From contig JBBISB010000001.1 of assembly GCA_037441475.1 (NCBI GenBank), positions 156,418-188,417 of the forward strand: 32,000 nucleotides of DNA, read 5' to 3'. A model generated the notes under the pieces. It made no database searches, had not been told where the DNA came from, and saw nothing but the letters and a program-made list of their open reading frames with translations. Made by a program: the position numbers and the translations under genes. Source of the stretch: Candidatus Iainarchaeum sp. GTDB lineage: Archaea; Iainarchaeota; Iainarchaeia; Iainarchaeales; CSSED10-239. Shown here piece after piece: positions 1 to 15,380 of this stretch (positions are counted from its first letter, which is position 1; every line of letters begins with the position of its first letter).

Positions 1-2121
1 GTTAAACCACTTTGCATTTCTTAAAGTCTTGTTTGAAAGATCAGTTGTTTGTCCTGAACATGGAGTGTATGAAGTTGATCCAATAGTTTCAGACTTAGCG
101 TATCTTACTTCCTTAATAAATAAAGCATCCTCTAAAACAGTATAAGTGGTTGTACCACATACTGGGTTTGGTGCATTTCCTATTCTTAAGTGTGCTACAA
201 CTTTTGAAAACTTTTTAGTAACATTTAATGAATATCTAGCAGTTACTTGCATACCTGGAGTTACAGAGTTTATTTTTTCTCCTAAAGCATTATAGAAACC
301 TAAAAACTCAATACCTGATGTTTGTGAAATTCTTGATGGTAAAGTAAATGAAAGATTAACAATCTCATTTGCATTAATCTCATATCTTGAAGTTATAAAT
401 TTAGAATCAAAATTATCAATAACAAAGTATACTTGCTTATCTGCTCTTATCTTTATTAAAGTAAAACCCTCTGCGTTTGTAGATGTGGTTTTATCTGCTA
501 AGATACTATCGTTTAAAGTATCATAAACATATACGTTTCCTTGGTAGAAATCCCCAAACTCAGTTTTTAAAGTTAAGTTAAAGGTTCCTTCTCCAATTGT
601 CATCTTTATTACTTGTTCATTTATTTGTTGTTCAACAATTCTAAATGGATTTGTAAACTCAGAAGTAAATTGTCCTTTAGATGAATCAAGCTTATATGTT
701 CTACTTATATCTAAGTTTGTTAAAACAGCTTTACCATAAACATCAGCAGTTATTGTTTGAAGAATAATGTTTTCTTCAGCATCCCATAGTCTAATGGTTG
801 CAAAATCAACTGGTTTAAGTAAATTATCTTGAACTGTTATAACAAGGCTTCTTAAGTTTTCATTAGTTATTGGGTTTAAAGAGATTTGTTTTACAGAGTC
901 ACTTATTCTTAAGTTATTCTCTGTTTTTAAAATATAATTAGGATTATTAAAAACAACCTTGTAAGTTATGTTTTCTTCAACACCGAAATTTACAAGACCT
1001 TCTTTGTTTGAGATTAATGTTTTTACAAGTGTGCTTGTTTTGTATAAAGAAACTGAAACATTTTCAATAGCTTCTTTTGTTTTAGAATCAATTACTTTAA
1101 ATTTAAGTTGACCAATATATGCCTTTGTTAAAAGAACATCTTTATTTTGAAGAGCTGAATCAACAATTGTTATTTGTATATTTTCAAGTTCTGTTATTGG
1201 TCTGTATCTATCATCATTATCATATATAACAACTCTGTATGTTCCTATTGTTATGTTTTCAAAAAGAACAATACCGTTTGTGTTTGTAGTTGCTTCTCTT
1301 ACAACTTGACTTTGCATATTAACAATTGAAACACTAACATTTGAAATTGGTGTTTTTAAATCATTATCTAAAACTTTAATCGATGCATTACCTGTTTTCT
1401 TTTCTGCAAAGCTTAACTCAACATCTCCTGATAAACCATCTTCGTTTACTGCAACAGAACCAACTGCATTAACTGTGGATGATTCTATTGAAACTTGTAA
1501 GTAACCACAATCAGCAGGTATGTCTGTTAAGGTTAAAGAACCGTCGTTTGTTAAAAGATTATTTTTTCTATAATTACTGTTATTTGAACAAGTGATTGTT
1601 GAAACTGTTAAAGGAGAATTATATAGTTCGTTATTTGATTTAAAATATATTGTTTTTGAAACTGTACTAACTGTTAATTTAAGATAAACTGGATAGTTAT
1701 TCTTTTTACTAAAGTTAATAGTTAAAGGAGTCTCTATTTGGTATTTAGAACTTTTAATACCTAAAGGCATTTCCTCTTTCTTAATACCAGTAACCTCTGC
1801 TATTCCTAAAGAGTTTGTTACAAGAAGTTTTGGAGAGTTGTTAAATAATATTTCTAAACTCTCATTTGAGATTGGTTTATTTTGGGAGTCTACAAAAGTT
1901 AAAGAATAGGTCTGATCAGTAACAACTGAAGATCCAAATAATAAGAATGCTAAAAATACTATTAATAAAAGTATTATAAGATTGAATAATAGGAAGGTTG
2001 GAATTCCGTTCTTTTCTAAAGGATCTACAATTTTATATAAATTGATTCCCTTTTTTTCTAATCTATCAAGAAATGCAAAGTATTTCTCTTCTTGCCTGTA
2101 GTAAAAAGATTTTAGACCCAT
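1..2121 (-). CDS. Giant membrane-anchored surface protein, paralog of the 2696-aa protein. Partial: the N-terminal 707 aa are present and the C-terminus lies beyond the window start.
   Basis: My own translation of the minus strand is open for all 707 codons, from ATG at 2121 (MGLKSFYYRQEEKYFAFLDRLEKKGINLYKIVDPLEKNGIPTF...) to position 1. A TM helix (LLFNLIILLLIVFLAFLLF) is followed by about six ~85-aa beta-sandwich repeats. These resemble carboxypeptidase-regulatory/Ig-like domains (pattern v.V.d....pi.n..v.l......T...G...f). Next comes an IEF.G...H.R.G segment that also occurs in the 2696-aa protein. The gene is absent from the ORF track because it is edge-truncated. Confidence 0.8.
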   Translation of the reverse strand, partial: MGLKSFYYRQEEKYFAFLDRLEKKGINLYKIVDPLEKNGIPTFLLFNLIILLLIVFLAFLLFGSSVVTDQTYSLTFVDSQNKPISNESLEILFNNSPKLLVTNSLGIAEVTGIKKEEMPLGIKSSKYQIETPLTINFSKKNNYPVYLKLTVSTVSKTIYFKSNNELYNSPLTVSTITCSNNSNYRKNNLLTNDGSLTLTDIPADCGYLQVSIESSTVNAVGSVAVNEDGLSGDVELSFAEKKTGNASIKVLDNDLKTPISNVSVSIVNMQSQVVREATTNTNGIVLFENITIGTYRVVIYDNDDRYRPITELENIQITIVDSALQNKDVLLTKAYIGQLKFKVIDSKTKEAIENVSVSLYKTSTLVKTLISNKEGLVNFGVEENITYKVVFNNPNYILKTENNLRISDSVKQISLNPITNENLRSLVITVQDNLLKPVDFATIRLWDAEENIILQTITADVYGKAVLTNLDISRTYKLDSSKGQFTSEFTNPFRIVEQQINEQVIKMTIGEGTFNLTLKTEFGDFYQGNVYVYDTLNDSILADKTTSTNAEGFTLIKIRADKQVYFVIDNFDSKFITSRYEINANEIVNLSFTLPSRISQTSGIEFLGFYNALGEKINSVTPGMQVTARYSLNVTKKFSKVVAHLRIGNAPNPVCGTTTYTVLEDALFIKEVRYAKSETIGSTSYTPCSGQTTDLSNKTLRNAKWFN

Positions 2122-2325
2122 AATTTATCTCTCATATATATATATTAATATATTTTTGCAGCATAATCCTTTAAAAGCTATGCTATTTAGTAAATATTAA
2201 TTGTCCTTATATATTTAAATACCTTTTTATTCACCATAAAAAGTTAATATTTTTTAAATTTTAGTAAAATTACCTATTTTTTATAAATTTTCCTTATATT
2301 GTTCAAGCTTTTAAAGTTTTTTTCT

Positions 2326-4002
2326 TTATTGAGCAACACACCCTGCTGTCCCTGGTAACCCTGCTTCGTAACTTTTACATCTCCATCCTGATGTCAGAGG
2401 ATTATTTAAAATTACTTGGTTTTGAAAATATCCTGGGGTTCCAAAGCTAAATGTTTGAGAAGGATTAAAAAAAGAATAACTTGCATAATCATCTTCTAAT
2501 TGCACATAGATATTTTTATAATCTTCTGCAAGGATATATCTTTCATCCTGGTCTTCAAATTTAAATAAAATATTTATTTTTTCTATTTTGCTACACTTTA
2601 AATTAAAATTTTTATTATCTTGAGAAATATTAGTAGGGTCTCTTAAAATAAAAATATTATTATCATTATTTAAAGAAAGTCCAATATTTGAAGCTTTATT
2701 ATATTGTAATGGATTAAAAATTACAGGTGTTATTGATGAGTCCCCTTGAATACCTCCAGCAGAAGGTTCTGATAAAACCTCTTTTGTGACTTTTGAAACA
2801 TCAATTACACTTACATTACAGATATTTAAACCATTTTGTGAAACAACAGAGTTTCTACACACCCCAATACCATCATTTACTGATTTAAGGTTATTTCCTG
2901 CATAGATTTGTACTGGTGTTCTTGCAGAAACATTATTTTTAATAGTTGTCTTAACAAGATCTTCAAAAACAGGTTTTAAATTTTCTGATGTTTGAAGAGA
3001 ATAACTATTATTTCCTGAAAGATTAATATTTGTACCAACTACAGTATACCCTCCGCCGTTGTTTGCCTTAACTCCTGAAACTGATGTTGGTTTTGTACAA
3101 ACATCCGAAAAATAATTTTTATTAGTAGTAATAAAAAGATCTTCTCTTAACCCACAACTATCAATATCACAAACCCCAAGCTTTGCACTGTTTAAAGTGT
3201 AATGGATGTATGGGTTAAAGAAACCTTGAGAGGTTGAAGAACGATTTAATATTTCACTTTGATCTTTTTTTTCGAGCTCAGCATCAAGAGCAAAGTTTCT
3301 AACAGTCCTCATAGCTTGAAACCCTCTCCAAGGAATATATATCTTATACTCTCTTCTTGCAAAAACTGGTCTTTGAATAACCTCATCATTTTGATTTCTT
3401 TTAACAACAATCATTGGAAGTTTTTCATAGTCCTCTGCAGATAAGTTTCTAGTGTCTATTGTAAAATATAAAGTTCCTAAACAATTTACACTATTCTGCT
3501 CACAATCAACAACTTTTAACTTATTATCTCCTGCTGCAACAAAAGAAGCTTTAATAATTCTAGATAATTCTATTTTATCATAATCAGGAACTTGAATACC
3601 ATACCCTATAGGTGGGTTTGTATATAATAAACTACTTATAACGTTTTGTGCAAAGAAATTTTCAAATTGATTATCAAAAAAAATATCATCTGCATAATAT
3701 TTTACAAAACTATCCCAATCAAGCATCACTTGTTCTCTTTGAATTTTAATTTGATTATCAGGGTTACTTCTAAACTTTATCCATTGTTCTCTAAAAGAAA
3801 CAACAAAGTTATTAAAAGCATCAGCTCTTGAAATATCTGCAATAGTAATTAGATCAGAAGTTCTTGATTGATCATCAATTAAGGATAAATAGTTTTCTTC
3901 GGTCTGTACCATGTTATATACAAAAACAATTGTTATGGAAAGTAGCATTAAAGAGATTAATGCTGTAAAAAGATTAAATCCTTTTTTGTTTTTTATAAAC
4001 AT
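2326..4002 (-). CDS. Secreted or surface Cys-rich protein (558 aa) with a type IV pilin-like (class III signal peptide-like) N-terminus
   Basis: Long ORF between the two giant genes. The N-terminus is MFIKNKKGFNLFTALISLMLLSITIVFVYNMV: basic residues, then G-F, then a ~22-residue hydrophobic helix. The rest is hydrophilic and N/S/T-rich with paired cysteines (DCEQNSVNC, GVCDIDSCG, GVCRN...NIC, WRCKS...GC). I recognise no enzymatic motif. Confidence 0.75.
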   Translation of the reverse strand: MFIKNKKGFNLFTALISLMLLSITIVFVYNMVQTEENYLSLIDDQSRTSDLITIADISRADAFNNFVVSFREQWIKFRSNPDNQIKIQREQVMLDWDSFVKYYADDIFFDNQFENFFAQNVISSLLYTNPPIGYGIQVPDYDKIELSRIIKASFVAAGDNKLKVVDCEQNSVNCLGTLYFTIDTRNLSAEDYEKLPMIVVKRNQNDEVIQRPVFARREYKIYIPWRGFQAMRTVRNFALDAELEKKDQSEILNRSSTSQGFFNPYIHYTLNSAKLGVCDIDSCGLREDLFITTNKNYFSDVCTKPTSVSGVKANNGGGYTVVGTNINLSGNNSYSLQTSENLKPVFEDLVKTTIKNNVSARTPVQIYAGNNLKSVNDGIGVCRNSVVSQNGLNICNVSVIDVSKVTKEVLSEPSAGGIQGDSSITPVIFNPLQYNKASNIGLSLNNDNNIFILRDPTNISQDNKNFNLKCSKIEKINILFKFEDQDERYILAEDYKNIYVQLEDDYASYSFFNPSQTFSFGTPGYFQNQVILNNPLTSGWRCKSYEAGLPGTAGCVAQ

Positions 4003-4259
4003 TTTTTTTCATTACCAGTATTTTTTTATATTTTTCAAAATAAAAATATTTTTCTTTTAAAAAAATAAAAATTATTCTTTTAAAAAATATTTTAAAAGTT
4101 AAATAACATTCTAAAAGAAAAATATTATTATTCTTAATATAATATATTAATATTTTTTATATTAAATACTATTATTAGAAGATGTTTATATTTTTATATA
4201 TTTCTGTTTTATAAAAAAAATAAAAAAAGAAGAGAAAAAGAAATATTTTCCCTATATTC

Positions 4260-7200
4260 TTAATTTGCTTTAACAGGGTCAATACATTTGTCAACTCTTA
4301 AAACATCTGTTAAAGCTATTATTGAAGGAGCTTGAGAGTTGTAAGGTCTTACATCAACAATATATCTTGACTTATACTCTTGTGAACTTTCAGGAGCAAG
4401 ATAATCTACCTCTGTTATATAGAAGATATTCTTTTCAAAGACAATAGGTGTTTTAATCTCAATTGAGCTATTAAGACCAGTCATACCTTTATCTCTTAAA
4501 CCATTAATACCAACTATGTTACCCGCAATTCCACAACCAAGTCCTCTTAAAAATCCACCAGCACCTCTAACCCACTTTAGTTTACTTGAAGCAGTTGGTA
4601 CTTTTGAACCGCTTATCTTTGTAAAGTCATCTATAACTTCGTCAGGAACTAAATAATTTCCAGCACCATCAGGAGCTAAACTACTTATCTTAATACTCAT
4701 TGCTTCTAATGAAGCTTTTTGTGCTTTTGCATCAGCTAGTTTAGTTTTTAATGAAGCTAAGTCTGATGATGCTTTTCTAGATGCTCTGTCCACAGCAGTA
4801 ATTTTATTAGGGTCTGATTTTACTTTTTTAGGATTAAAAGAAGATCTTGCATTATTTTTTTCAAGATCAGTAATCTTTCTTTCTAAAACTTTAATTGAGT
4901 CATCTGCTTCTTTTATTAAACCTTTCTTAGAATCACCTATTGTGTCTAAAAGATTATTTAGTGAAGCGTCATCAATTACATTAACTGTACTTGTAGTTGT
5001 TGTTCCAGGTCCAGCTCCTGCTGCAACACTTCTGTCATAACCTTGTAACTTAGATAAATAGCCATTATTTTTGGTTAGACTATTAACTGCATCAACTTGA
5101 CTTAAATGTCCTGATGGATAAACTCCAGAATGAGGAAATTGACTTCTTGAAACAACTTGTAATAAATCATCTAATTGAGCACTAGTTATTTTTGAATAAT
5201 TAATTTTTGCGTTTGCACCACTTCCTGATATTACATCTGGATTATTCATCAAAGCCTCAATTACATTATCTGCTATTCCAGTAGTATTAGTAAAGGATGT
5301 CGGAACTTGATTAAAATATATTCCTGCTGATTGAACATTATTTACTGTAACCATTTGAGGGGATGAAAGATAATTATTTGAAATAACTTTAATATAATCA
5401 TCTAAAAAATTTATTGCCTTTTCAGAAGGTGCTCTAGGTCTTACTAAATTAGGGGTTGTTCCAGGTGTTGTAGTTGTTACTGTTTGAGATACAAAAGGAT
5501 CATCACCTAAACTTATTGTTGCCTCTCCAAGATTTAATGGAGTTGCAGCAGCAGAAGATCCTGCCTTAAAAGAACCTGCCATTACAGATCCAACAATTCC
5601 TGTAAACCACTCTTCAACCTCTCCAAACAAAGGACCTAAAAACTTAAGTTCAGGTTCATTAAATAACCATCCTAAAAACTTATCAATAAGCCATCCTAAA
5701 CCGCCCTCTCCACCTGTTAAAGCAGATGCAAAGATTTGAAGAGCAGGAAGACCACATGAAAAGCCTAAACAATCAATTCCAATACCTGCAATAGATACTG
5801 GCATTAAAACTGCTGACAAACCATAACAACCAGCACAAGTTGCAGAACATCTTAAGAAATACTGTCCAGCATTGTTTAAGCCTTTATTTATTTTCGAGGT
5901 TGTCTTTTGTTCAGGGTCCTTTAAATCACAACCAAGTTGTTCATAGTTATAAAAGAAATCTCCATTATACTTTCCAGAGTCCATAACCTTTTGTAAAGTA
6001 GAACACATCTCTTCTTTTTCAGCAGCATTATACTCTTTCTTCCAATCAACTAAGGCAGTGATGTTAAGAGGAAGATTTTTATCTTCATCTTTTTTATTAT
6101 TCTCTAAAAGAATATTATTATAAACTTCTAAAAGATATTCAGAAGGAGTTATAGCACATGAAGCTAAAGTAACCTCTGCAATTGCACTCCTGTTACCAAT
6201 AGTACCATCAGAAGAATAAATACTTGTAGCTGTAACAGTTGCTTTTTGACCAACCAAAGTATTCATTTCAGAGGGTGTTAATGGAGTTACACACATAAAA
6301 AAATTATTATCTTGGTTTTGAAGAACAGAAAGGCTAAGAGGCTCTTGAACACCATCATCTTTATTTTTCTTAAAACCAATAGTGCCACCAGGAACTTGTG
6401 TTGATGAAATTTTTAAAGTCTCATCCATTGATGATTTTATTTTCATTAAAGTACAAGAAGATGTTTCTTGTAAAGTTAAAGAAACTTCCTTTTCAGTAAA
6501 AGCTAAATCTCCAGCCTTAACTAAATCAAGGATAAGCATATATGTTTGATCTTTAGAAACACAAACCTTTGCACTATAATCGTTCTTTGTTATCATTGAG
6601 CTTATAACATTTACAAACTCTCTTCTTACCTTGTCAGGAGTTAAGCCATCTGCTGTTTGATATTGACTATTAAGAAGAACATTTATTTGTTCAGGGTTTG
6701 CTTTTTCATAAACTTGTTTATCATTAAAAGATATTTTTGCAAGAGCATTTTTATTTTCAGAAATAACACCTGAAGAAACATTTAAGGTACTGTTTCTTGT
6801 AGATAAAACATCTCTATTGTAAACATATCTTAAATCTACTTGATCTGTCTTAAACTTACCTACACCCTTGATTAAGTCTTTTGAAATATTTTCATCACCA
6901 GTAAACAAAGTAAGCCATGTTCCTTGTCTATTGTTTTTATCTAAAGTTAAATCCCATGGAAGGAAGTTTAAATAATTCATTATCTTTTTATCACAGTGAG
7001 AAGTTTTTTCATACTTTAAAACATTTATGAAATAATATGCTCTCTCTGGATAAATATAATCAGGAGAAGCTGCTATAAAACCATCAAGCTCAATTGTGTA
7101 CTTACCACAACCACTCAATTGATTTGAAACAAACACTTTATTTCCACCAGCATAAACACCTAAAGAAGTATTCCCTGCACTATTAAATGGATTTGTTTCA

Positions 7201-10200
7201 ACAAAGTAATTTTTAAAACCATAATTTGATTTTGAAAGAATAGCTCTTACAAGCTCAGTAGAGACTACATCATTTTGCATATAGAAAGTAAACTCAATTG
7301 GCTCAACATCTCCACCAAGCTCTGATATCTTACAATACCCTCTTGCAGCATCAACTAGAGGACATCCTGTGTTCATTGTCTTTGCTTGTGCTTGAGAAGA
7401 CATTTGTTTTATTTGGTTTTGAAGTTCACTTACCTTCTTTAAAATATACTCTGTTGAAGAAACAGCATCACAGTAACCTGATTCTTCAGAACATGCACCA
7501 ATTGAGATTAAAGGTCTACTTAAGGTTGTTGTTTCTTTTAAGTCTTCACAAACTGGAAGAGAAGAATTTATTGTAACAATATTATCTTTAGCTTGATCTT
7601 CAAAGACATCTTTGATATTTATAGAAACTGTAAAGTCCTCTGAAGTTACAGGATTACCAGAGTTAAGTAATCTTCCTATTATTACCATTGGCATTTTAGG
7701 AGAGCCACCTAAAGAGCTTGCTGTAAGCTCTAAGCTATAGGTTGCTGATTGATTAGGGTATATTAAATTATTACCAGAGGTTGGAATTATTCTAAAAGGA
7801 TTAGCACCAAAAGTCTCTGTATAACCATCTTGTTTTTTATCAATACCAACAACAGAAACTGGTTCTGCACAGTAGTTTGTTAAGGTAATGTTTCTTGCTC
7901 TCTTTTCTCCAACCTTTAAAGTATAATCTAAATTTTTATTACTTACCTTCAAACAGTTAGGAGAGGAGATTGTAAAAATAATCTGGGTGGTTGCTGTTAT
8001 TGGGTTATTAATACCAGCAGCTTTTCCAGTAACTAAAATAAATGCATTATCAGCAGTTGATTTATTTATATTAACTGTAAACTGTAAATCAATAGGTATT
8101 GATGCACCAGGCTCTAAAACAGATACCTCTCTAGGATATTCTTTAATACCTATGTTTGAAGATACCATCTTAGGATATTGACTTATCTGTATATCTGTTA
8201 TTGGAACTGTTCCTATATTTTTAATCATGAACCTTGTTGCATTAACAGCAGATTGCTGAGGATGAAGTTGTGAGATTGGAACCTGTATTAATGTAGGCAT
8301 TATCCATAAAGCCTTACTTAGATCTAAAAGATCAACATTTAAAGTTGATGGGGAAACAGAGTATAAGCTGTTATGCCATAGGATATTATAAGTAAATTTT
8401 CTTTGTTGTTTAAGGTTTGATTTATTTTTAATAATAACATCATAAACCTTCTCTTCTCCTGGAAGAACAGTTACATGAGCAAGGGAAAGCTCTAAACCAT
8501 TGTTTGAAGCTGAGGAGGTTAACACTGATTGTGGAGTAAAGGTTATAGCTTGTGAACAGTTGTTTTTAATAATAAAGAAAGTAGTATTTTCTGTACTCTC
8601 TGTTGTTGAATCTACTTTTGAAGAATAGTAGGTATAATAGTTAGGATCTGTATAGTTTACAGTATTCCTTGAAGAAGAATAATTTTGAGTATAGTTTTGA
8701 GATGCTAAATAATCTGAGTAATTGGAGTAGGTTTGAGAAGGTGCAAGTAAAAGATTACTTCTTTGTGTATTTCCAGCATAATTGTAGTTTGTGAAAGGAG
8801 TGTTATACACATTTGGTGCAGTATACTTAAGGTTTAAACCTACAAAGGAGTTAACTGCATTTGGAGTTATCTCAATACAGTCGCTAACCAAAAGACCTTT
8901 GTTTATCCTAATAGGGACAATCTTTGTAATCTCTCTAGGACCAATGGTTGCATAGATAGGAACATTTGCAAATGCTGTTTCAAACAATATATCTTTTGAT
9001 ACAGTGATTACAACCTCGTAGTTTTGAGAGGAATTTTTATTAATAAAAGGATTACCTCTAATATCTATAAAGATTTTATCAGATCCATCAACCCAGACTG
9101 GTTCTCCAAACCTGATGTTAGTTGCTTGGTAAACACCGTTGTTTTGTAAAGTAAATCTTGAAGAGGAGGTTATCTGGTCAAGACCAAGATTGATTAATAC
9201 CTCAGGAGGTGTTAATGTTAATAAAGAATCATCAACTATGAAAATTTGTTTTTTATAAGGAACATAACCATAACTTTCAACTAAGACGTTTACAGAGGAG
9301 ACATTAAATTTATTTTCAATAGTATAGTTTCCATTTCTACCATTACTTCCCTCTCCCTTAACTGAGGAAATAAAGGCTCCTCTATCATCATAGAAAGAGA
9401 TGAATGCATTTTCAATAGGTTTTAAAGAAACTGAATCAATAACCTCTATATTAAACTTAGAACCGTATGAAACAAAGATATCAGGTGTAAAAATAACCTT
9501 CATTTCTTTTTTATCAAAAACATTAAAGCTTAGTCTATCATTAAAGACTTGAGAACCTAAGATAGCATCTGTTCCCTTAAGATCAATGTATGCTGTTCCT
9601 ATCTCCTTTGAAATAAATGTTAAATAAATTTTCTTTAAACTGTTTTGGTTTATTGAAAGATTATCCCTTACTGCTTCAAAGTTTGAAGAATCATAAGTTG
9701 TGCTTTGGTTATTTAGAGTATCTGTAAAAAGATTAAAGGAGATTAAAGGAAAGCTCTTTGAAGTTTCAGCTAAAAGATTTAACTGTGAGTTTTTTAAAGA
9801 ATAGATGCTTGTTTCAAGAGAGTAGTTTTCTCCTTTAATAGCATAAAAGTCTTCAATATTAAACTCATTATCTTTTGAGTCAATTATCTTATAAGAAACA
9901 CAAACATCACCAGAACAATTTAAAGGAACATTGAAAAGATCAATTGAAACTTCTTTTGTTTGTGCATAAAGAGCTCCCTTAAGATTATTTGAATAGTTTT
10001 GTTTTAAAGTTGTATCAATAGGATCTCTATAGTAAAGTTTATTTTCTTCAATCAATGCCCTGTACTTAAAGATTAGTTTTGTAACAGACATATCAACTGC
10101 ATTAACCTTAACCTTTATTTGTTTGTTTCCTAAAGGAACATCTGAAGCCCATTTAAGCTCAAGCCATTTATTTATTATCTGTGAAGAACCTTCATTAAGA

Positions 10201-12350
10201 GAGTCAATACCTTGCATTCCCGGGGCAGGCTCACTATTATAAGTTGTCCCATATTTAAAGTTAGTTATGTCCATTGCAGAGAAACCAGTAATACCGTAAC
10301 TCATTAGTTCTGAATCTGTTTGAGTATCATCACCAGCTCTGATATGCACTTCTCCTTTATATGTTTTTTCAGGGAAAAGAACATCAAAAACTAAATAGTA
10401 TTCTTTGTCTGTTGTTAAGTAGTTTGTTTTAATACCTTTAGAGTCAACCACACCTGCAAACTCAATTACAGGGTAATCAGAGTAGTTAACTTGTTTGTTT
10501 AAATCAAGTCTTAAGTAACCACCATTATCTGCTTGGTCTGCTGAAAAGTTAATAACAGATTTATTTCCATTCTCGTCTGTATATTCAGCAATTAAGTCCT
10601 TGTAACCTTCTGTGTTAAATATTATTTCTTCACCTAAAGAAATATTTCCATCAAAAAGAACAGTTCCATCTTTTGTTCTTATTAAAAGATTTCCTGAAGT
10701 TATTTTCATTCCGTTTTCATCATAAAAATCAAGTTTTATCATTTTTGAAGCATTATCAACAACAAAGATGATTTTATTTTCTCTTAAAGGATTTATTTTT
10801 ATATTTTCAAAAACTTCTGTTTCTCCAACCATGGCATAAACCCTGTAGTCCTTGTTTACTCTTAAAGGTAAAGCAAAAGAACCTGTTATGTCTGTTTGAA
10901 GAGAGGTGTTGTAAGGAACTTCTACTTCTGTTTCTGGATTGAAGTTTATAAGTTCATAGATTTTTAAAAAAGCTTTTGTTACTGGAAGATTTTTTTCATC
11001 AACAACAAAGATATTAAGTATTGCACTATTTGAAACATCTATTCTTTCTAAGATAAACTCAGCTTTTGTTGTTTGTCGTAAATCTACTGTTTGATTTTCA
11101 CAAAAATAATCTACTTTACATGCTGTTATTAAGATTGGTTTTTCAGAGGTTATTCCTTTAAAGCTTATTTGACCTAAAGCATCTGTTTTTCCAGAATCAA
11201 TAACTGTGTTATCTTTATTATATAATGTTATTAAAACATCCTCTAAAGAAAAGAAATTTGTTTTTGATTTAGTTGAAATATCAATAAAGTTTCCACCAAG
11301 CTCTAAGACAACAATAAATGTTTCTTCAGAGTTGATTATTCTTAAGGAAATGTTTTCATCACTTATAGCTGTTCTGTAACCTTCCTTTTTAACCCTGTAA
11401 GAGATTGTTTCTCCAGTGTCTATGTATGCTAAGGCCTTACCATCTATTGTTTTTTGATTTGCAACCTCTTCTCCACCTAAATTAAAGATTAAAACTTCTG
11501 CATTATCAATTACTTTTTGAGAAGTGTCTAAGACAACAAAGGTAACTATGCTTTTTCCTTCAAAGGAAAGTGAAGAGATATCCATCTCAATAACTTTCTC
11601 TTGTTCTTTTGAAGTTATTCTATAGTTTGTTTCTCTATAGTCTTCATAACCATCTGCCTTTATTAAAATTTCTAAATCTTTGTTTAAAGGTACTTCTAAG
11701 GTTATAAAATGATTTTGATATTGATTTACAATTCCTTCTTTACTTTCTTGTCTATTGTTAATAGAGAAGTTAACTTTTGCAGAGCCTGCAGGAATTGTTT
11801 TTCTATTTTCTCTATCTATTAGTTTAATTTTTAAAACTCCATACTCTATTGATTCTGTAAAAACAATTGAGATGTTTTGTTTCTTCTCTGTAATGGTTAT
11901 AACTTTTGTAAAGTCAGGGTGTCCTGCTTTTGTTGAATAAAAGGTATATGATTCTCCTAACTTAAGTTTTATTTTTTTAGAAAAACCATTTTCAATAGTT
12001 CCTTTAAAAACATCTTTATCTTTGCTTGATATTTTTAAGTAAACATCAGATAATGAGTTTCCTTGATAATCAGTAACTGAAAAAGTCAAGGTTGATTGGT
12101 TTGAGAAAGAAAAGAAAATTAAAAAGATTATTATGAAAAGTAATAATAGTAAAATAGATGCAACAATTGCAAAGGCAGGTAAACCTTTTTCTTCTAAGTA
12201 ATTATTAAAATCGTTTAGAGGGATTCCTTTTTCTGAAAGCCAGTTTGAGGTGCTTGCATATTTATCTTCAAGATAATTATAGACCCTTGAGAAAATATTT
12301 TGTGAACTGCTTTCTTCTGATGACGCCATATTTTTCTTTTCTTTAACCAT
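4260..12350 (-). CDS. Giant surface protein (2696 aa). Order: N-terminal cytoplasmic motif, TM anchor, six beta-sandwich repeats, CARDB/ASH-like modules, N/Y/S-rich linker, Cys-rich region, hydrophobic Gly/Cys-rich segment, coiled coil.
   Basis: An uninterrupted 8.1-kb ORF. TM helix at residues ~61-82 (AIVASILLLLLFIIIFLIFFSF). Six ~85-aa repeats have a carboxypeptidase-regulatory-like pattern. At least four modules carry an (F/I).(I/L).N.G signature (FTLQNNG, FMIKNIG, ITLTNYC, FIIKNNC), typical of CARDB/ASH/PapD-like beta-sandwiches. The C-terminal features are described in the findings. Antisense ORFs inside it are shadows. Confidence 0.9.
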   Translation of the reverse strand: MVKEKKNMASSEESSSQNIFSRVYNYLEDKYASTSNWLSEKGIPLNDFNNYLEEKGLPAFAIVASILLLLLFIIIFLIFFSFSNQSTLTFSVTDYQGNSLSDVYLKISSKDKDVFKGTIENGFSKKIKLKLGESYTFYSTKAGHPDFTKVITITEKKQNISIVFTESIEYGVLKIKLIDRENRKTIPAGSAKVNFSINNRQESKEGIVNQYQNHFITLEVPLNKDLEILIKADGYEDYRETNYRITSKEQEKVIEMDISSLSFEGKSIVTFVVLDTSQKVIDNAEVLIFNLGGEEVANQKTIDGKALAYIDTGETISYRVKKEGYRTAISDENISLRIINSEETFIVVLELGGNFIDISTKSKTNFFSLEDVLITLYNKDNTVIDSGKTDALGQISFKGITSEKPILITACKVDYFCENQTVDLRQTTKAEFILERIDVSNSAILNIFVVDEKNLPVTKAFLKIYELINFNPETEVEVPYNTSLQTDITGSFALPLRVNKDYRVYAMVGETEVFENIKINPLRENKIIFVVDNASKMIKLDFYDENGMKITSGNLLIRTKDGTVLFDGNISLGEEIIFNTEGYKDLIAEYTDENGNKSVINFSADQADNGGYLRLDLNKQVNYSDYPVIEFAGVVDSKGIKTNYLTTDKEYYLVFDVLFPEKTYKGEVHIRAGDDTQTDSELMSYGITGFSAMDITNFKYGTTYNSEPAPGMQGIDSLNEGSSQIINKWLELKWASDVPLGNKQIKVKVNAVDMSVTKLIFKYRALIEENKLYYRDPIDTTLKQNYSNNLKGALYAQTKEVSIDLFNVPLNCSGDVCVSYKIIDSKDNEFNIEDFYAIKGENYSLETSIYSLKNSQLNLLAETSKSFPLISFNLFTDTLNNQSTTYDSSNFEAVRDNLSINQNSLKKIYLTFISKEIGTAYIDLKGTDAILGSQVFNDRLSFNVFDKKEMKVIFTPDIFVSYGSKFNIEVIDSVSLKPIENAFISFYDDRGAFISSVKGEGSNGRNGNYTIENKFNVSSVNVLVESYGYVPYKKQIFIVDDSLLTLTPPEVLINLGLDQITSSSRFTLQNNGVYQATNIRFGEPVWVDGSDKIFIDIRGNPFINKNSSQNYEVVITVSKDILFETAFANVPIYATIGPREITKIVPIRINKGLLVSDCIEITPNAVNSFVGLNLKYTAPNVYNTPFTNYNYAGNTQRSNLLLAPSQTYSNYSDYLASQNYTQNYSSSRNTVNYTDPNYYTYYSSKVDSTTESTENTTFFIIKNNCSQAITFTPQSVLTSSASNNGLELSLAHVTVLPGEEKVYDVIIKNKSNLKQQRKFTYNILWHNSLYSVSPSTLNVDLLDLSKALWIMPTLIQVPISQLHPQQSAVNATRFMIKNIGTVPITDIQISQYPKMVSSNIGIKEYPREVSVLEPGASIPIDLQFTVNINKSTADNAFILVTGKAAGINNPITATTQIIFTISSPNCLKVSNKNLDYTLKVGEKRARNITLTNYCAEPVSVVGIDKKQDGYTETFGANPFRIIPTSGNNLIYPNQSATYSLELTASSLGGSPKMPMVIIGRLLNSGNPVTSEDFTVSINIKDVFEDQAKDNIVTINSSLPVCEDLKETTTLSRPLISIGACSEESGYCDAVSSTEYILKKVSELQNQIKQMSSQAQAKTMNTGCPLVDAARGYCKISELGGDVEPIEFTFYMQNDVVSTELVRAILSKSNYGFKNYFVETNPFNSAGNTSLGVYAGGNKVFVSNQLSGCGKYTIELDGFIAASPDYIYPERAYYFINVLKYEKTSHCDKKIMNYLNFLPWDLTLDKNNRQGTWLTLFTGDENISKDLIKGVGKFKTDQVDLRYVYNRDVLSTRNSTLNVSSGVISENKNALAKISFNDKQVYEKANPEQINVLLNSQYQTADGLTPDKVRREFVNVISSMITKNDYSAKVCVSKDQTYMLILDLVKAGDLAFTEKEVSLTLQETSSCTLMKIKSSMDETLKISSTQVPGGTIGFKKNKDDGVQEPLSLSVLQNQDNNFFMCVTPLTPSEMNTLVGQKATVTATSIYSSDGTIGNRSAIAEVTLASCAITPSEYLLEVYNNILLENNKKDEDKNLPLNITALVDWKKEYNAAEKEEMCSTLQKVMDSGKYNGDFFYNYEQLGCDLKDPEQKTTSKINKGLNNAGQYFLRCSATCAGCYGLSAVLMPVSIAGIGIDCLGFSCGLPALQIFASALTGGEGGLGWLIDKFLGWLFNEPELKFLGPLFGEVEEWFTGIVGSVMAGSFKAGSSAAATPLNLGEATISLGDDPFVSQTVTTTTPGTTPNLVRPRAPSEKAINFLDDYIKVISNNYLSSPQMVTVNNVQSAGIYFNQVPTSFTNTTGIADNVIEALMNNPDVISGSGANAKINYSKITSAQLDDLLQVVSRSQFPHSGVYPSGHLSQVDAVNSLTKNNGYLSKLQGYDRSVAAGAGPGTTTTSTVNVIDDASLNNLLDTIGDSKKGLIKEADDSIKVLERKITDLEKNNARSSFNPKKVKSDPNKITAVDRASRKASSDLASLKTKLADAKAQKASLEAMSIKISSLAPDGAGNYLVPDEVIDDFTKISGSKVPTASSKLKWVRGAGGFLRGLGCGIAGNIVGINGLRDKGMTGLNSSIEIKTPIVFEKNIFYITEVDYLAPESSQEYKSRYIVDVRPYNSQAPSIIALTDVLRVDKCIDPVKAN

Positions 12351-12568
12351 ATTTATTCTTTTTATATTTTTTTTATAAATATCAGATATATGATATTATA
12401 TATAATATATTGGTAAGATATATAAAGATTTGTATCTTTAGGTAAATATATTATTTATAGAAATGTTTATATATTAATTTTTTCCCTATAAACAATTTAT
12501 ATGTTTTCTTTTAAAGAAGAAATTTTTAAAAAATATTTTAAAAAATAATTAAAAAAAGAAGAAAACAA

Positions 12569-12904
12569 TTATTTAGAGTTTGAAACTCTAATAATTGCAA
12601 CTATTGAAACAATTAATGCTGCTGGTGCTACAAAGTAAACAAGGTTTACTAAGATCCCTCTTAAGACATCTCCCACAACAGGAATTGCATTAATTGAGTT
12701 ACTGGTTGCTATAAATGTTATTGAGGCTATTAAGAAAAGAGAGATATTTCTATCTTCAATGTTTAAAAGACCAATAACAAGACCTAATACTATTAAAACA
12801 GTTGAAAGCCATACAGGGTGACTTATACCATAGATAAGTCCAAAAATAATTGAAAGTAAGATACCACCAAGGAAAGCAAAAGCTCCTATTTTTTCAAGTT
12901 TCAT
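12569..12904 (-). CDS. Small integral membrane protein (111 aa, about 4 TM helices), function unknown
   Basis: The ORF is almost entirely hydrophobic helices (GAFAFLGGILLSIIFGLIYGI, WLSTVLIVLGLVIGLL, LFLIASITFIATS, LVYFVAPAALIVSIVAII). Confidence 0.65.
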   Translation of the reverse strand: MKLEKIGAFAFLGGILLSIIFGLIYGISHPVWLSTVLIVLGLVIGLLNIEDRNISLFLIASITFIATSNSINAIPVVGDVLRGILVNLVYFVAPAALIVSIVAIIRVSNSK

Positions 12905-13053
12905 ATTTTATCTTTAACTCCATTTTTTGTAATTAAGTTATTTTCTTCTAATATCATAATTACATGTTACCTATATTATTTTTAATACAAAATATTTAAA
13001 AAGCCTGCATAAAAATGAAAATAAGGACTTTTAGGTAGAAAATATTAAATAAG

Positions 13054-13131
13054 GGCAGAAAAGAAGAAGGGAGATTATTTATTAAAATCAACCTTTTCTT
13101 TTTTAAAATAAGTAGGCAGAAAAGAAGAAGG
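13054..13131. repeat. Two copies of a purine-rich 17-bp direct repeat GGCAGAAAAGAAGAAGG (13054..13070 and 13115..13131), within longer ~32-bp imperfect units
   Basis: Read directly. The extended units are AAATAAG-G-GCAGAAAAGAAGAAGG-GAGATTA and AAATAAGTAGGCAGAAAAGAAGAAGGTTAGAGATTA, with starts 61 bp apart. They lie in the 428-bp gap between the wHTH regulator gene and the small membrane protein gene. Confidence 0.5.
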
Positions 13132-13332
13132 TTAGAGATTAAACATACTCTTTTACCTAACATTCTTTTTTATTAGTTTAGATTTGTTTTAAACAGACTT
13201 TTTTTGTTAAAAGGAAAAAATTACTTTTTAAAAATAAAAACAAAGAAGAAAGGTATAAAAGATGTAAAAAGGGGTTATTTACATTTTTTTAAAAAAGGGG
13301 ATTTTTATTTAAAATGATTTTTTATAAAAAAA

Positions 13333-13794
13333 TCATCTAACAATAAAGTATACCTTTCTTCCTGCTTGAATCTTTTTTAAGTATCCTTCTTTTACAAGTC
13401 TATTTAATCTTTGAGAAGCTGCATTTGATCCCTTGTAATTAAACTCAGTCTGTACTTCTTCTGCATCAACCTTTTGCTTTGTTCTTATAAAAGAAATTAT
13501 CTTATCATCAATCTCTGCTAAAATATTAATTGTATCTAAATTACTAGTATCTTCTGACTCTTTCTTTTGCTTAAATGCAAACTGAAGAGAATCATACTTT
13601 TCATAAAGATCTTTTAATATTGAGTTTGTCTTTTTTCTTTCTTCTAAAAGCTGATGTAGAATGACTGAGAGGATTAATGGATCATTAAACTTCTCCTGGA
13701 TCTGAATAAGATCACTCAAACCCATTTCTTGAGAATCTTCTTTTAGTAACTGTTCTAAAAACAATTGCTTTGTGAGATTGTCATTTTTAGTCAT
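13333..13794 (-). CDS. Winged-helix DNA-binding protein (putative transcriptional regulator, 153 aa)
   Basis: The C-terminal ~55 aa (DKIISFIRTKQKVDAEEVQTEFNYKGSNAASQRLNRLVKEGYLKKIQAGRKVYFIVR) fit the MarR/TrmB-like wHTH pattern, meaning helix-turn-helix followed by a beta wing. The N-terminal half is helical and acidic. Confidence 0.6.
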   Translation of the reverse strand: MTKNDNLTKQLFLEQLLKEDSQEMGLSDLIQIQEKFNDPLILSVILHQLLEERKKTNSILKDLYEKYDSLQFAFKQKKESEDTSNLDTINILAEIDDKIISFIRTKQKVDAEEVQTEFNYKGSNAASQRLNRLVKEGYLKKIQAGRKVYFIVR

Positions 13795-15366: not shown

Positions 15367-15380
15367 ATCCTAAAACCCCC

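What the first reader, a model, noticed from the sequence alone, without database searches (positions are those of the whole stretch)
1..12350. Tandem paralogous giant surface proteins flanking a pilin-like protein: a candidate cell-cell attachment locus
Three consecutive minus-strand genes fill 12.3 kb: a giant protein cut by the window edge (more than 707 aa), a 558-aa Cys-rich protein with a type IV pilin-like N-terminus, and a 2696-aa giant. The two giants share the same order of parts. Each has a short cytoplasmic N-terminal motif, a single TM anchor and six ~85-aa carboxypeptidase-regulatory-like beta-sandwich repeats. Each then has a shared IEF.G...(V/A)H(I/L)R.G segment (VIEFAGVV...EVHIRAGD versus GIEFLGFY...VAHLRIGN). 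I see no enzymatic motif in any of the three.

In small-genome episymbiotic archaea, giant surface proteins are the prime candidates for host attachment. A duplicated giant gene bracketing a pilin-like protein looks like a dedicated, uncharacterised surface apparatus rather than a generic S-layer gene. That functional reading is inference.
Basis: partly seen in the sequence, partly recalled or inferred. Interest (0 to 1): 0.8.

Follow-up and report, generated by a model that had tools for sequence, protein, structure and literature searches.

The report
Conserved giant surface-protein locus, Iainarchaeota
A small-genome DPANN archaeon devotes at least 30 kb to a conserved row of giant membrane-anchored surface proteins plus a pilin-like partner of unknown fold; this is probably its cell-contact apparatus, and relatives carry bacterial cell-wall-cutting enzymes at the tip of one giant.

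Summary
Three minus-strand genes fill window 1-12350: G2 (707 aa here, 2321 aa in full), P558 (558 aa) and G1 (2696 aa).

G1 and G2 are true paralogues, but only over their first ~1,100 aa (profile-profile E 6e-38). That part holds a cytoplasmic N-terminal motif, one TM helix, beta-sandwich repeats and the IEFxG...H[IL]RxG module. Their distal halves are unrelated.

The trio is part of a larger conserved array: (111-aa membrane protein)-G1-P558-G2-G3-S4-G5, at least 6 genes and about 30 kb. It keeps this order across Iainarchaeota (Diapherotrites) down to 29-31% identity.

P558 has an invariant KGF[NTS]LFTAL prepilin-like start and 8 invariant Cys. Its AF2 model is confident (pLDDT 83) but matches nothing in PDB or BFVD, and no pilin HMM matches it.

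G1 belongs to a rare family (123 clusters among 1.84 billion) with a fixed architecture and a polymorphic C-terminal slot. Eight members carry murein hydrolases there (NlpC/P60, SLT, Amidase_2, Amidase_3, glucosaminidase). The window's G1 has an empty slot.

The best reading is a lineage-specific cell-contact (host or prey) apparatus. The function is inferred, and a structural envelope role is not excluded. It is a new variant of the known DPANN giant surface proteins.

The parts
4260..12350 (-). G1, giant protein of 2696 aa
   Evidence: ORF. Orthologs share 89-29% identity. It belongs to a discrete family of 123 clusters.
12168..12350 (-). G1 aa 1-61: cytoplasmic N-terminal motif (FSRxYNxLEDKY...KGIPL...LEEKGLPAF)
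   Evidence: The motif is shared with G2, G3 and G5 and with all G1-family members.
12111..12167 (-). G1 aa 62-80: the single strong TM helix (membrane anchor)
   Evidence: Hydropathy 3.48 over 19 residues, the only segment of that strength.
10551..12104 (-). G1 aa 83-600: about six tandem beta-sandwich (CarboxypepD_reg/bMG3-like) units
   Evidence: Iterated search finds units at 83-169, 166-254, 264-345, 354-439, 440-537 and 524-600; three are significant. Pfam hits are weak.
8850..10493 (-). G1 aa 620-1167: module shared with G2 and G3 (IEFxG...HIRAGxD, NKWLEL, YRDPxD, LYAxTK, CxxxxC, then a CarboxypepD_reg unit at 962-1044)
   Evidence: hhalign collinear alignment with paired columns. Invariant residues listed.
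8601..8843 (-). G1 aa 1170-1250: N/Y/S/T-rich low-complexity hinge at the end of the paralogous part
   Evidence: Read directly from the sequence. G2 has an N/Q/Y/G-rich hinge at the equivalent place.
7584..8600 (-). G1 aa 1251-1589: further Ig-like domains (weak DUF7507-like hit at 1373-1429)
   Evidence: Pfam hit below threshold. Conserved Cys pairs.
5556..7583 (-). G1 aa 1590-2265: G1-specific conserved distal module (many invariant Cys; GYCD, QND and GCGxY motifs)
   Evidence: Alignment A6. An exhaustive profile search finds it in only 123 clusters, always at about the same position in 2.4-3.4 kaa proteins. Only a generic Ig-like sub-domain is seen by Foldseek.
5685..5849 (-). G1 aa 2168-2222: Cys-flanked hydrophobic, Gly-rich segment (CxxxCxxC...hydrophobic...CxxxxC)
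   Evidence: Hydropathy 1.76. Invariant C2168, C2172, P2184, C2194, C2199, P2202. Predicted helical at low confidence.
4611..5555 (-). G1 aa 2266-2580: fast-evolving linker containing a coiled coil (about aa 2478-2556)
   Evidence: 26-29% identity to the Forterrea-like ortholog, against 54-72% elsewhere in G1. Long helices in the model. Only coiled-coil-type PDB hits.
4263..4610 (-). G1 aa 2581-2696: conserved C-end module (Gly-rich helix GFLRGLGCGIAGN plus a small beta domain). The protein stops here, so the effector slot is empty.
   Evidence: The module is found in 83 of 92 full-length family members. 28 end at it and 55 continue with tails of 125-697 aa.
4003..4259 (-). G1-P558 intergenic region, with a long T-run directly after the G1 stop
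   Evidence: Read directly from the sequence. It is a possible archaeal terminator; its function was not tested.
2326..4002 (-). P558, a 558-aa bitopic protein with a prepilin-like N-terminus
   Evidence: ORF. 36 plus 35 homolog clusters, all Iainarchaeota/Diapherotrites or unclassified archaea. AF2 pLDDT 83, pTM 0.81.
3916..4002 (-). P558 aa 1-29: MFIKNKKG|FNLFTALISLMLLSITIVFVY, a class-III-signal-like motif followed by a hydrophobic helix
   Evidence: Invariant F9, L11, F12, T13, A14 and nearly invariant K7, G8 (Ala in the most distant homologs). Hydropathy 2.42.
2122..2325 (-). P558-G2 intergenic region
   Evidence: Read directly from the sequence.
1..2121 (-). G2, first 707 aa of a 2321-aa giant. 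It holds the N-motif (aa 1-42), TM (43-61), beta-sandwich units (69-591) and the IEFLG...AHLRIG segment (603-648).
12569..12904 (-). 111-aa polytopic membrane protein directly upstream of G1; possibly part of the locus
   Evidence: It holds the same position in L003, L004 and L007, and is 92% identical to the L003 copy. It is absent in other branches, where LemA sits there instead.

Best explanation
The region is the first 12 kb of a lineage-specific, vertically inherited surface-apparatus locus of Iainarchaeota (Diapherotrites, DPANN).

At least four giant proteins (G1, G2, G3, G5) are each held in the cell membrane by one N-terminal TM helix, preceded by a conserved 40-60-aa cytoplasmic motif. 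In G1, G2 and G3 a paralogous stalk of about 1,000 aa of beta-sandwich domains follows; G5, known only from its N-terminal ~1,300-1,500 aa, also carries CarboxypepD_reg/SpaA-like units. Each of the giants seen in full, G1 and G2, ends in a distal part unrelated to the other's. The stalks act as spacers that hold the distal parts tens of nanometres from the cell, where they meet the envelope of another cell.

G1 is the working end. It has a conserved Cys-rich module, a Cys-flanked hydrophobic segment, a fast-evolving coiled-coil linker and a terminal slot. In other lineages that slot carries interchangeable domains, including murein hydrolases. In this genome the slot is empty, so G1 would bind or insert rather than cut.

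P558 is a disulfide-rich ectodomain on a long N-terminal helix with a prepilin-like start. It is co-anchored next to the giants as a fixed partner, for example as a base or adaptor. S4 is a secreted 1,000-aa component.

Shown: gene order, paralogy, domain layout, family limits, synteny and the variable hydrolase tails. Inferred: the N-in/C-out topology, the extended stalk, the physical association of the parts, and cell-cell contact as the purpose.
For: 1. Architecture. Each giant has one strong N-terminal TM. The N-motif is shared by G1, G2, G3 and G5. The stalks of G1, G2 and G3 are paralogous: G1-G2 E 6e-38, G2-G3 E 2.5e-48, G1-G3 E 1.6e-20. Beta-sandwich units are detected.
2. Dedicated locus. 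The order G1-P558-G2-G3 is found in all 20 or more loci with enough flank, down to 29-31% P558 identity. S4 and G5 follow in the window's branch. The locus occupies about 3.5% of an 840-kb genome.
3. Extracellular partner. P558 has 8 invariant Cys and one TM, and the model shows a 72-residue N-terminal helix followed by a globular domain.
4. G1 as effector scaffold. The G1 family has 123 clusters among 1.84 billion, with the module at a fixed position. The conserved C-end module is followed in 55 of 83 members by tails of at least 5 unrelated types.
5. Hydrolase tails. P0146 carries NlpC/P60, Amidase_3 and Glucosaminidase. P0194 carries SLT and Amidase_2. P0095 and P0102 carry SLT. P0044, P0087 and L005/L006 carry NlpC/P60.
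6. Surface-type evolution. The giants and P558 are 58-70% identical to the Forterrea-like ortholog, against 81-92% for the neighbouring genes. The G1 distal linker is only 26-29% identical.
7. Lifestyle. Large extracellular proteins were proposed to mediate interaction in the host-dependent relative Forterrea (PMC5905446).
Against: - There are no expression, localisation or binding data, and no cultured member of the lineage.
- The window's G1, G2 and P558 have no recognisable ligand-binding or enzymatic domain.
- The AF2 model of the G1 distal part is poor (pLDDT 54.7), so its fold is unknown.
- Strict vertical conservation in every member would fit a housekeeping envelope structure equally well.
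- Hydrolase tails were recognised in only 8 of the 92 full-length members. Pfam screened 34 of them; the rest were covered only by the NlpC/P60- and SLT-seeded searches. The tails are absent in the window's branch, so the 'bacterial wall' clue may not apply here.
- The intergenic gaps of 204-257 nt and the T-run after G1 argue against a single tight operon.
Confidence: 0.5

Rival explanations
1. Housekeeping cell envelope. The giants, P558 and S4 together build the constitutive outer coat of Iainarchaeota (an S-layer substitute or sheath), anchored by the N-terminal TM helices. Any role in contacting other cells is secondary.
For: - The locus is present, single-copy and in the same order in every lineage member examined.
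- No other S-layer-like gene is seen in the window.
- A membrane anchor with a long stalk is how several archaeal envelope proteins are built (general knowledge).
- 28 of 83 G1 members carry no tail domain.
Against: - No match to any S-layer family.
- Known S-layers use one or two abundant proteins of 40-200 kDa, not four or more giants of 190-300 kDa each with a different distal end.
- A polymorphic C-terminal slot with murein hydrolases is hard to explain for a self-coat in an organism without murein.
- The distal linker evolves much faster than the rest of G1.
Confidence: 0.25
2. Contact-dependent antagonism or predation. G1 is a polymorphic effector-delivery protein, analogous to CdiA, Rhs or phage tail lysins. 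Its C-terminal domain attacks the wall of neighbouring bacteria, and the other giants provide adhesion. The aim is killing or feeding rather than stable symbiosis.
For: - A conserved scaffold ends in a conserved module followed by a variable C-terminal domain.
- The tails include five different murein hydrolase families, sometimes three in a row.
- Large lytic-transglycosylase proteins have been read as signs of predation on bacteria in Woesearchaeota (PMC9723730, PMC8204110).
Against: - The window's G1 has no tail at all.
- The gene downstream of G1 is the conserved P558, not a variable immunity gene.
- Most tails have no recognised toxin or lysin domain.
Confidence: 0.12
3. Type IV pilus-like machine. 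P558 is a true prepilin, cleaved after Gly8 by a PibD/FlaK-type peptidase. It is assembled by a PilB/PilC-like system as a tip or adaptor subunit, comparable to Glu5-less GspK or PilK, and it couples the giants to a filament.
For: - The K-G|F-[NTS]-L-F-T-A-L start is invariant and is followed by about 20 hydrophobic residues. Gly is replaced by Ala in distant homologs.
- The model shows a long N-terminal helix followed by a globular head.
- A T2SSE-family ATPase lies divergently upstream of the locus in one deep-branch relative (L107).
- The absence of Glu at +5 is typical of tip minor pilins (general knowledge of GspK).
Against: - No pilin or class-III-signal HMM matches.
- There is no structural match to pilins.
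- No other ORF with such a start occurs in the window or in 1.48 Mb of related loci.
- No peptidase, PilB or PilC gene lies in the 32-kb window.
- The ATPase neighbour was seen in only one locus.
Confidence: 0.1

Closest known systems
Large extracellular proteins of Ca. Forterrea multitransposorum (Diapherotrites), noted by Probst and Banfield 2018 (PMC5905446)
   Same: It is the same lineage. The Forterrea chromosome CP045477.1 carries the orthologous G1-P558-G2-G3 array, with P558 at 56% identity. The paper's figure legend proposes that large extracellular proteins mediate interaction with other organisms.
   Different: In the text searched, the paper gives only that one general sentence. 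It says nothing on the locus, the paralogy, P558, the family limits or the variable G1 tails.
Large murein lytic-transglycosylase proteins of Woesearchaeota and Pacearchaeota (fam00969, up to 3,000 aa; Castelle et al. 2021, PMC8204110; Vigneron et al. 2022, PMC9723730)
   Same: Both are DPANN extracellular proteins of about 3,000 aa that carry a murein hydrolase. Some G1-family members carry SLT at the C-terminal end (P0095, P0102, P0194).
   Different: The window's G1 has no SLT or any other hydrolase. The named members of the G1 family are labelled Iainarchaeum, Diapherotrites or 'archaeon', never Woesearchaeota or Pacearchaeota. G1 tails use five hydrolase families, not only SLT. Homology between G1 and fam00969 was not tested.
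SPEARE and related giant membrane-anchored surface proteins of Nanohaloarchaeota (Hamm et al. 2019; reanalysed in PMC10266531)
   Same: Both are giant surface proteins of a small-genome DPANN archaeon. Both have tandem Ig-like domains and a coiled coil near the tip, and both are proposed to act on the host.
   Different: SPEARE proteins are single genes of 6,000-9,400 aa with a Sec signal and a VirB4/TraG-like ATPase domain, next to a second VirB4-like ATPase (PMC10266531). Here there are several giants of 1,700-2,700 aa with an N-terminal signal-anchor, and no ATPase domain in G1, P558, G2 or S4 or in the parts of G3 and G5 that were scanned.
Bacterial giant repeat adhesins (for example SiiE, LapA, MpIBP; general knowledge)
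   Same: The design principle is the same: a long stalk of tandem beta-sandwich domains projects distal binding modules away from the cell.
   Different: The bacterial adhesins are exported by type I secretion and retained at the outer membrane, or are LPXTG-anchored. They have many near-identical repeats. Here the anchor is an N-terminal TM helix with a conserved cytoplasmic motif, the repeats are divergent, and there are several paralogs in a row.
Minor (tip) pseudopilins and pilins lacking Glu5, such as GspK and PilK (general knowledge)
   Same: Both have a G|F-[TS]-L start followed by a hydrophobic helix, no Glu at +5, and a large globular domain on a long N-terminal helix.
   Different: No sequence or structural similarity was detected. 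No accompanying pilin genes were found. P558 is far larger, at 558 aa.
Polymorphic toxin systems (CdiA, Rhs, MafB; archaeal examples in Makarova et al. 2019, seen here only in the reference list of PMC12352652, not read)
   Same: Both have a conserved delivery scaffold, a conserved pre-toxin-like boundary module and a variable C-terminal domain.
   Different: There is no cognate variable immunity gene downstream. The recognised tails are wall hydrolases rather than nucleases or pore formers. One third of the family, including this gene, has no tail.

Membership tests
Type IV pilin / class III signal peptide proteins (for P558) | Short basic leader ending in Gly or Ala, followed directly by about 20 hydrophobic residues | tested here: met
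   The start is MFIKNKKG|FNLFTALISLMLLSITIVFVY. K7 and G8 are nearly invariant, with Ala in the most distant homologs. F9, L11, F12, T13 and A14 are invariant. Hydropathy is 2.42.
Type IV pilin / class III signal peptide proteins (for P558) | Match to curated pilin N-terminal models (Pfam N_methyl or Class_IIIsignal; NCBIfam prepilin or archaeal flagellin N-terminal models) | tested here: not met
   No Pfam family at E<=1. No NCBIfam family at E<=0.1.
Type IV pilin / class III signal peptide proteins (for P558) | Pilin fold: N-terminal alpha-1 helix packed on a beta-sheet head, similar to solved pilins | tested here: inconclusive
Type IV pilin / class III signal peptide proteins (for P558) | Genomic company of a prepilin peptidase, a PilB/FlaI ATPase, a PilC/FlaJ platform protein and further pilins | tested here: inconclusive
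   None of these lies in the 32-kb window. No other prepilin-like ORF occurs in the window or in 1.48 Mb of related loci. A T2SSE ATPase is adjacent in one deep-branch locus only. The whole genome could not be read.
Type IV pilin / class III signal peptide proteins (for P558) | Cleavage of the leader and assembly into a filament | not testable with these tools
   This needs N-terminal proteomics or imaging.
Archaeal S-layer proteins (for G1 and G2) | Match to a known S-layer domain family, or a Sec signal with a C-terminal anchor (PGF-CTERM or TM) | tested here: not met
   No S-layer family in Pfam or NCBIfam. The anchor is an N-terminal TM helix after a cytoplasmic motif of ~40-60 aa, and there is no C-terminal hydrophobic end.
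Tandem beta-sandwich repeat surface proteins (CarboxypepD_reg / SpaA / SdrD_B / bMG3-like) | Several tandem units that match these Pfam models above the gathering score | tested here: met
   G2 scores 65.4 bits for CarboxypepD_reg (cut-off 32.3), 49 for SdrD_B and 43.6 for SpaA. G1 is below the cut-off itself (26.8 bits), but its orthologs score up to 85 bits, and iterated search finds the units.
DPANN large murein-hydrolase surface proteins (fam00969-type) | Presence of an SLT or other murein hydrolase domain in the giant protein | tested here: not met
   The window's G1, G2 and P558 have none. G1 ends at the conserved C-end module. The feature is met only by other G1-family members.
Polymorphic toxin systems | Variable C-terminal effector after a conserved boundary, together with a variable immunity gene directly downstream | tested here: not met
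   The variable tail is present across the family but absent in this gene. The downstream gene is the conserved P558 in all loci.
SPEARE-type giant proteins of Nanohaloarchaeota | Single gene of more than 5,000 aa with Ig-like arrays and a VirB4/TraG-like ATPase domain, next to a VirB4-like ATPase (PMC10266531) | tested here: not met
   No ATPase domain in G1, P558, G2 or S4, nor in the part of G5 that was scanned (its first 1,368 aa; G3 was never Pfam-scanned here). The lengths of the giants seen in full are 1,616-2,696 aa.

The most novel reading that the evidence does not exclude
G1 is an envelope-breaching device, not merely an adhesin. At the end of a stalk of roughly 50 nm it carries an internal hydrophobic loop bracketed by invariant cysteines, a heptad-type coiled coil and a second Gly-rich hydrophobic helix. 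This arrangement recalls membrane-inserting or fusogenic proteins. In lineages with bacterial partners it is extended by murein hydrolase cassettes that open the wall first. G1 would then be the first molecular candidate for how an Iainarchaeote opens a conduit into its partner. The hydrolase tails would be direct genomic evidence that some DPANN archaea of this phylum live on bacteria.
Probability: 0.1. Interest if true: 0.9.

Novelty: new variant of a known kind. Interest (0 to 1): 0.6.

Why it matters
Iainarchaeota have no cultured member. Their hosts, if any, are unknown, and it is debated whether they are free-living or symbiotic.

A conserved locus of about 30 kb, some 3.5% of the genome, of anchored giants with a partner protein of unknown fold gives a concrete target. 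It can be followed up by metaproteomics, antibody or FISH-correlated cryo-ET, and structure prediction of complexes.

The polymorphic end of G1 carries five families of murein hydrolases in some lineages and nothing in others. This offers a genomic marker that might separate lineages dealing with bacteria from those dealing with archaea. It also links this phylum to the 'large lytic transglycosylase' proteins reported in Woesearchaeota and Pacearchaeota.

The shared N-terminal motif and TM module, also seen in a Micrarchaeota giant (P0047), may be a general DPANN anchoring or targeting signal worth defining.

Tried and rejected
- **Plain BLASTP between G1 and G2** is almost blank. Paralogy only appeared with ortholog profiles.
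- **Family and structure-sequence searches.** NCBIfam gave nothing for G1, P558, G2 or the 111-aa protein. hmmsearch of the G1, G2 and P558 profiles against PDB sequences returned only coiled-coil or single Ig-like noise.
- **AF2 of G1 1590-2696** with a 9-sequence alignment gave pLDDT 54.7. Foldseek on that model returned only generic Ig or macroglobulin-like hits over about 150 columns. A rank-46 hit to archaeal Fusexin1 at probability 0.35 is not meaningful.
- **SLT in the L047 ortholog.** An SLT-like end seen in the fragment (E 0.013) was not confirmed when the full protein was scanned (L105), so it was dropped.
- **Relation of tail types to SLT.** jackhmmer from a verified SLT tail reached only one other member, so the other tail types are not shown to be SLT.
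- **The largest tail type** (24 members, motif PEALLVT...GC...CAA) has no Pfam or PDB match.
- **N-glycosylation sequon counts** do not separate these proteins from cytoplasmic ones in this AT-rich genome.
- **Provirus or viral origin.** No relative of P558 is found in IMG/VR, and the neighbours are housekeeping genes.
- **Literature.** The cryo-ET paper on ARM-1 nanotubes names no gene cluster that could be compared.
- **Co-transcription** could not be tested. The promoter and terminator tool does not cover archaeal signals, so it was not used.


Full report
**1. What is in the sequence**

Window 1-12350 holds three minus-strand genes:
- G2 starts at 2121 and runs off the window edge, giving 707 aa here.
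- P558 lies at 2326-4002 (558 aa).
- G1 lies at 4260-12350 (2696 aa).

The only other ORF of 80 aa or more in the region (7298-7576, plus strand) lies inside G1 and has no support. The gaps between the genes are 204 and 257 nt and are extremely AT-rich, and a long T-run follows the G1 stop codon.

An exact look-up of P558 found the source contig. There G2 is 2321 aa and is followed after 40 nt by a third giant, G3, of 1704 aa.

**2. Organism and context**

The window is about 28% G+C. It encodes archaeal housekeeping proteins: ribosomal protein L44e, NurA, an XPD-type helicase and PEP synthase.

Homologs of P558 are labelled Candidatus (I)ainarchaeum or Diapherotrites. The closest named genome is Candidatus Forterrea multitransposorum CP045477.1, with P558 at 56% identity. 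So this is a DPANN archaeon of the Iainarchaeota. Forterrea was predicted to be host-dependent, and its authors remarked that large extracellular proteins probably mediate interaction (PMC5905446).

**3. The giants are paralogues, but only in their proximal part**

BLASTP between G1 and the G2 fragment finds only the N-terminal motif (E 0.015). Profiles built from four orthologs each tell a different story:

| Pair | Aligned residues | E-value |
|---|---|---|
| G1 with G2 | 22-1167 with 5-1141 (99.9% probability) | 6e-38 |
| G2 with G3 | 1-885 with 1-913 | 2.5e-48 |
| G1 with G3 | not listed | 1.6e-20 |

All three alignments are collinear. So are further motifs: NKW[LF], YR...R[DS]P[VI]D, LYA[QE]TK and a CxxxxC pair.

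The shared part has this order:
- a cytoplasmic motif of 40-60 aa (aromatic-x-x-[LI]-E-[DE]-[KR]-[YW]-[YF]..., then ...KGIPxY...LE[KE]KGIPxF);
- one very hydrophobic TM helix;
- about six divergent beta-sandwich units;
- the IEFxG module;
- one more CarboxypepD_reg unit.

After about residue 1150 both proteins have an N/Y-rich low-complexity hinge, and beyond it they no longer align. Pfam supports the repeats strongly in G2 (65 bits). In G1 itself the score is below threshold (26.8 bits), but G1 orthologs score up to 85 bits.

**4. P558**

Two searches returned 36 and 35 homolog clusters. Those that carry a name are labelled Iainarchaeum, Diapherotrites or simply 'archaeon', apart from one labelled Micrarchaeota. 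A pattern scan found relatives in 19 of 185,579 species-representative genomes and none in IMG/VR.

The alignment shows an invariant start, K-G-F-[NTS]-L-F-T-A-L, followed by about 20 hydrophobic residues. Gly is replaced by Ala in the most distant members. Eight Cys are invariant.

The AF2 model is confident (pLDDT 83.2, pTM 0.81). It shows a helix spanning residues 7-78 followed by a mixed alpha/beta globular part. It has no significant structural match in PDB or BFVD by Foldseek, no PDB sequence match, and no Pfam or NCBIfam family.

The motif fits a class III (prepilin-type) signal, and the missing Glu at +5 recalls tip pilins such as GspK. However, no curated pilin model matches. No other prepilin-like ORF occurs in the window or in 1.48 Mb of related loci. 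A T2SSE ATPase neighbour was seen in only one deep-branch locus. I therefore treat 'pilin-like' as a lead, not a classification.

**5. Synteny and true extent of the locus**

Every relative with enough flanking DNA keeps the order G1-P558-G2-G3. This holds from 78% down to 29-31% P558 identity, including a second, deeper Diapherotrites branch.

Loci centred on G3 show what follows in the window's branch:
- S4, a protein of about 965-1,020 aa with a Sec-type signal and no Pfam match;
- G5, of at least 1,280-1,495 aa, with a variant of the N-terminal motif, a TM helix and CarboxypepD_reg/SpaA units.

Upstream, a 111-aa polytopic membrane protein is conserved in part of the lineage (92% identical in the Forterrea-like genome). 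LemA takes that place in other branches. One sub-lineage (L010/L050) has other genes in place of G1 and S4.

The finding is therefore a slice of an array of at least 6 genes. In the Forterrea-like genomes these encode at least 9,700 aa, which is about 3.5% of an 840-kb genome.

**6. G1 is a discrete family with a polymorphic end**

A profile of the G1-specific distal module (aa 1590-2265) was searched exhaustively against 1.84 billion cluster representatives. It found only 123 proteins (118 at E<=1e-10). Nearly all are 2.4-3.4 kaa long, with the module at the same position and the same N-terminal motif. The members that carry names are Iainarchaeum, Diapherotrites or 'archaeon'.

The last 116 aa of the window's G1, a Gly-rich hydrophobic helix plus a small beta domain, are conserved in 83 of 92 full-length members. 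Of those 83:
- 28 end there, and the window's G1 is one of them;
- 55 continue with tails of 125-697 aa.

The tails fall into at least five unrelated types. Pfam recognises murein hydrolases in the following members:

| Member | Domains in the tail |
|---|---|
| P0146 | NlpC/P60, Amidase_3, Glucosaminidase (2869-3315 of 3374) |
| P0194 | SLT, Amidase_2 |
| P0095 and P0102 | SLT |
| P0044, P0087 and L005/L006 | NlpC/P60 |

. NCBI independently names two of these 'transglycosylase SLT domain-containing protein'. The largest tail type remains unidentified.

Within G1, identity to the Forterrea-like ortholog is 54-72% up to residue 2200. It drops to 26-29% over residues 2201-2600, which hold the linker and coiled coil. 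It is 48% at the C-terminal end.

**7. How it most likely works**

The following is shown: the layout of the proteins, their paralogy, the conserved order of the genes, the limits of the families, and the variable hydrolase tails.

The following is inferred:
- Each giant sits N-in/C-out. This rests on a single TM helix, a short and weakly basic N-terminal segment, and conserved Cys and Ig-like domains in the bulk of the protein.
- The beta-sandwich stalk extends tens of nanometres. At about 4 nm per domain and at least 12 domains in G1, that is roughly 50 nm.
- The stalks present four different distal modules to another cell's envelope.
- G1 is the working end.

In lineages with tails, G1 would cut murein, so the partner or prey there would be a bacterium. 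In this genome the slot is empty, and G1 would bind or insert through its Cys-flanked hydrophobic segment and Gly-rich helix.

P558 and S4 are fixed partners whose role is open. Candidates are a base, an adaptor, or a cap processed by a prepilin peptidase. I put 0.5 on this cell-contact reading.

**8. Rivals**

- **Constitutive envelope (0.25).** This fits the universal, single-copy, vertically inherited pattern. It does not explain the four different distal ends or the hydrolase slot.
- **Contact-dependent antagonism or predation (0.12).** This fits the polymorphic end, but there is no immunity gene and this G1 has no tail.
- **A genuine type IV pilus-like machine with P558 as tip subunit (0.1).** This rests on a motif and one ATPase neighbour.

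**9. Comparison with what is known**

The general idea that DPANN archaea carry giant surface proteins for host interaction is established as a hypothesis. Examples are:
- SPEARE and related proteins in Nanohaloarchaeota (PMC10266531);
- large SLT proteins in Woesearchaeota and Pacearchaeota (PMC8204110, PMC9723730);
- one sentence on Forterrea (PMC5905446).

In the papers I could search, I found no description of the following:
- this locus;
- the shared anchor-stalk module of several giants in a row;
- the P558 family, which has a confident model without structural relatives;
- the G1 family, whose conserved boundary is followed by interchangeable murein hydrolase cassettes from five families.

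It differs from SPEARE in having no ATPase and several shorter genes with an N-terminal signal-anchor. It differs from bacterial giant adhesins in having no T1SS or LPXTG anchoring and in its divergent repeats. It differs from polymorphic toxin systems in having no immunity gene. I rate it a new variant of a known kind.

**10. Limits**

- There are no expression or localisation data, and the whole genome could not be read.
- The G1 distal model is poor.
- Pfam screening of the G1 family covered 34 of about 90 full-length representatives, so the share with hydrolase tails is a lower bound.
- The E-values from local hhalign runs rest on 4-sequence profiles.

Noticed in passing
window 14149-15366 (-) and 15381-15803 (-): Two Sec-signal secreted proteins of 405 and 140 aa lie upstream of the locus and have no Pfam match. 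The 405-aa protein has tandem 11-residue repeats of the type N(S/N)AVTxSK(L/I)AD, reminiscent of fibre proteins, and a Cys-rich C-terminal half.
   Followed up: no
window 13333-13794 (-): A 153-aa protein has weak winged-helix or Myb-like hits at its C-terminus. It holds the same position upstream of the 111-aa gene and G1 in the Forterrea-like genomes (81% identity). It is a possible local regulator.
   Followed up: partly
window 20177-20734 (-), 24988-26166 (-), 30175-30465 (+): The window holds a LemA gene, a DUF2207_C membrane protein and a separate 96-aa ORF matching only the DUF2207 N-terminus. In several relatives (L005, L012, L014) LemA sits directly upstream of G1, whereas here it is 8 kb away.
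   Followed up: no
window 4215-4259 (minus strand, just after the G1 stop): A T-run of about 30 nt follows the G1 stop directly, which could be an archaeal intrinsic terminator. If so, G1 and P558 may not be co-transcribed.
   Followed up: no
G1 aa 1170-1250 (window 8601-8843) and G2 aa ~1280-1400 (L001:15720-16080): N/Y/Q/G-rich low-complexity hinges sit at the equivalent boundary in both giants, exactly where the paralogous stalk ends and the unrelated distal parts begin.
   Followed up: no
L107:1-1866 (-); L105:82-651 and L106:213-782 (+): In the deep Diapherotrites branch the locus is flanked by other genes. L107 has a T2SSE-family ATPase and a 331-aa polytopic membrane protein. L105 and L106 have a 189-aa exosortase (EpsH)-like protein next to an NTP_transf_2/HEPN pair.
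   Followed up: partly
L027:14598-14900: The 3' end of the G3 ortholog contains a perfect tandem DNA repeat that reads MLELV many times in an overlapping frame. This is a repeat-expanded region inside a giant gene.
   Followed up: no
L016:602-9954 and 11949-19114: In one MAG, G1 is split into 2541 and 433 aa, and G2 into 2202 and 184 aa. These are frameshifts, pseudogenisation or assembly errors in the giants.
   Followed up: no
proteins P0204 and P0207: Fragments in the same 90%-identity cluster as an archaeal G1-family protein are labelled 'Candidatus Izemoplasmatales bacterium' in NCBI. This is probably a binning contaminant rather than a bacterial homolog.
   Followed up: no
protein P0047: A 3657-aa protein labelled Micrarchaeota shows the same kind of N-terminal motif (…W..F.EW...KGLPL…WLEEKGLPS) followed by a TM helix and carries CarboxypepD_reg (precomputed Pfam), so this N-terminal anchor motif may be a wider DPANN feature beyond Iainarchaeota.
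   Followed up: partly
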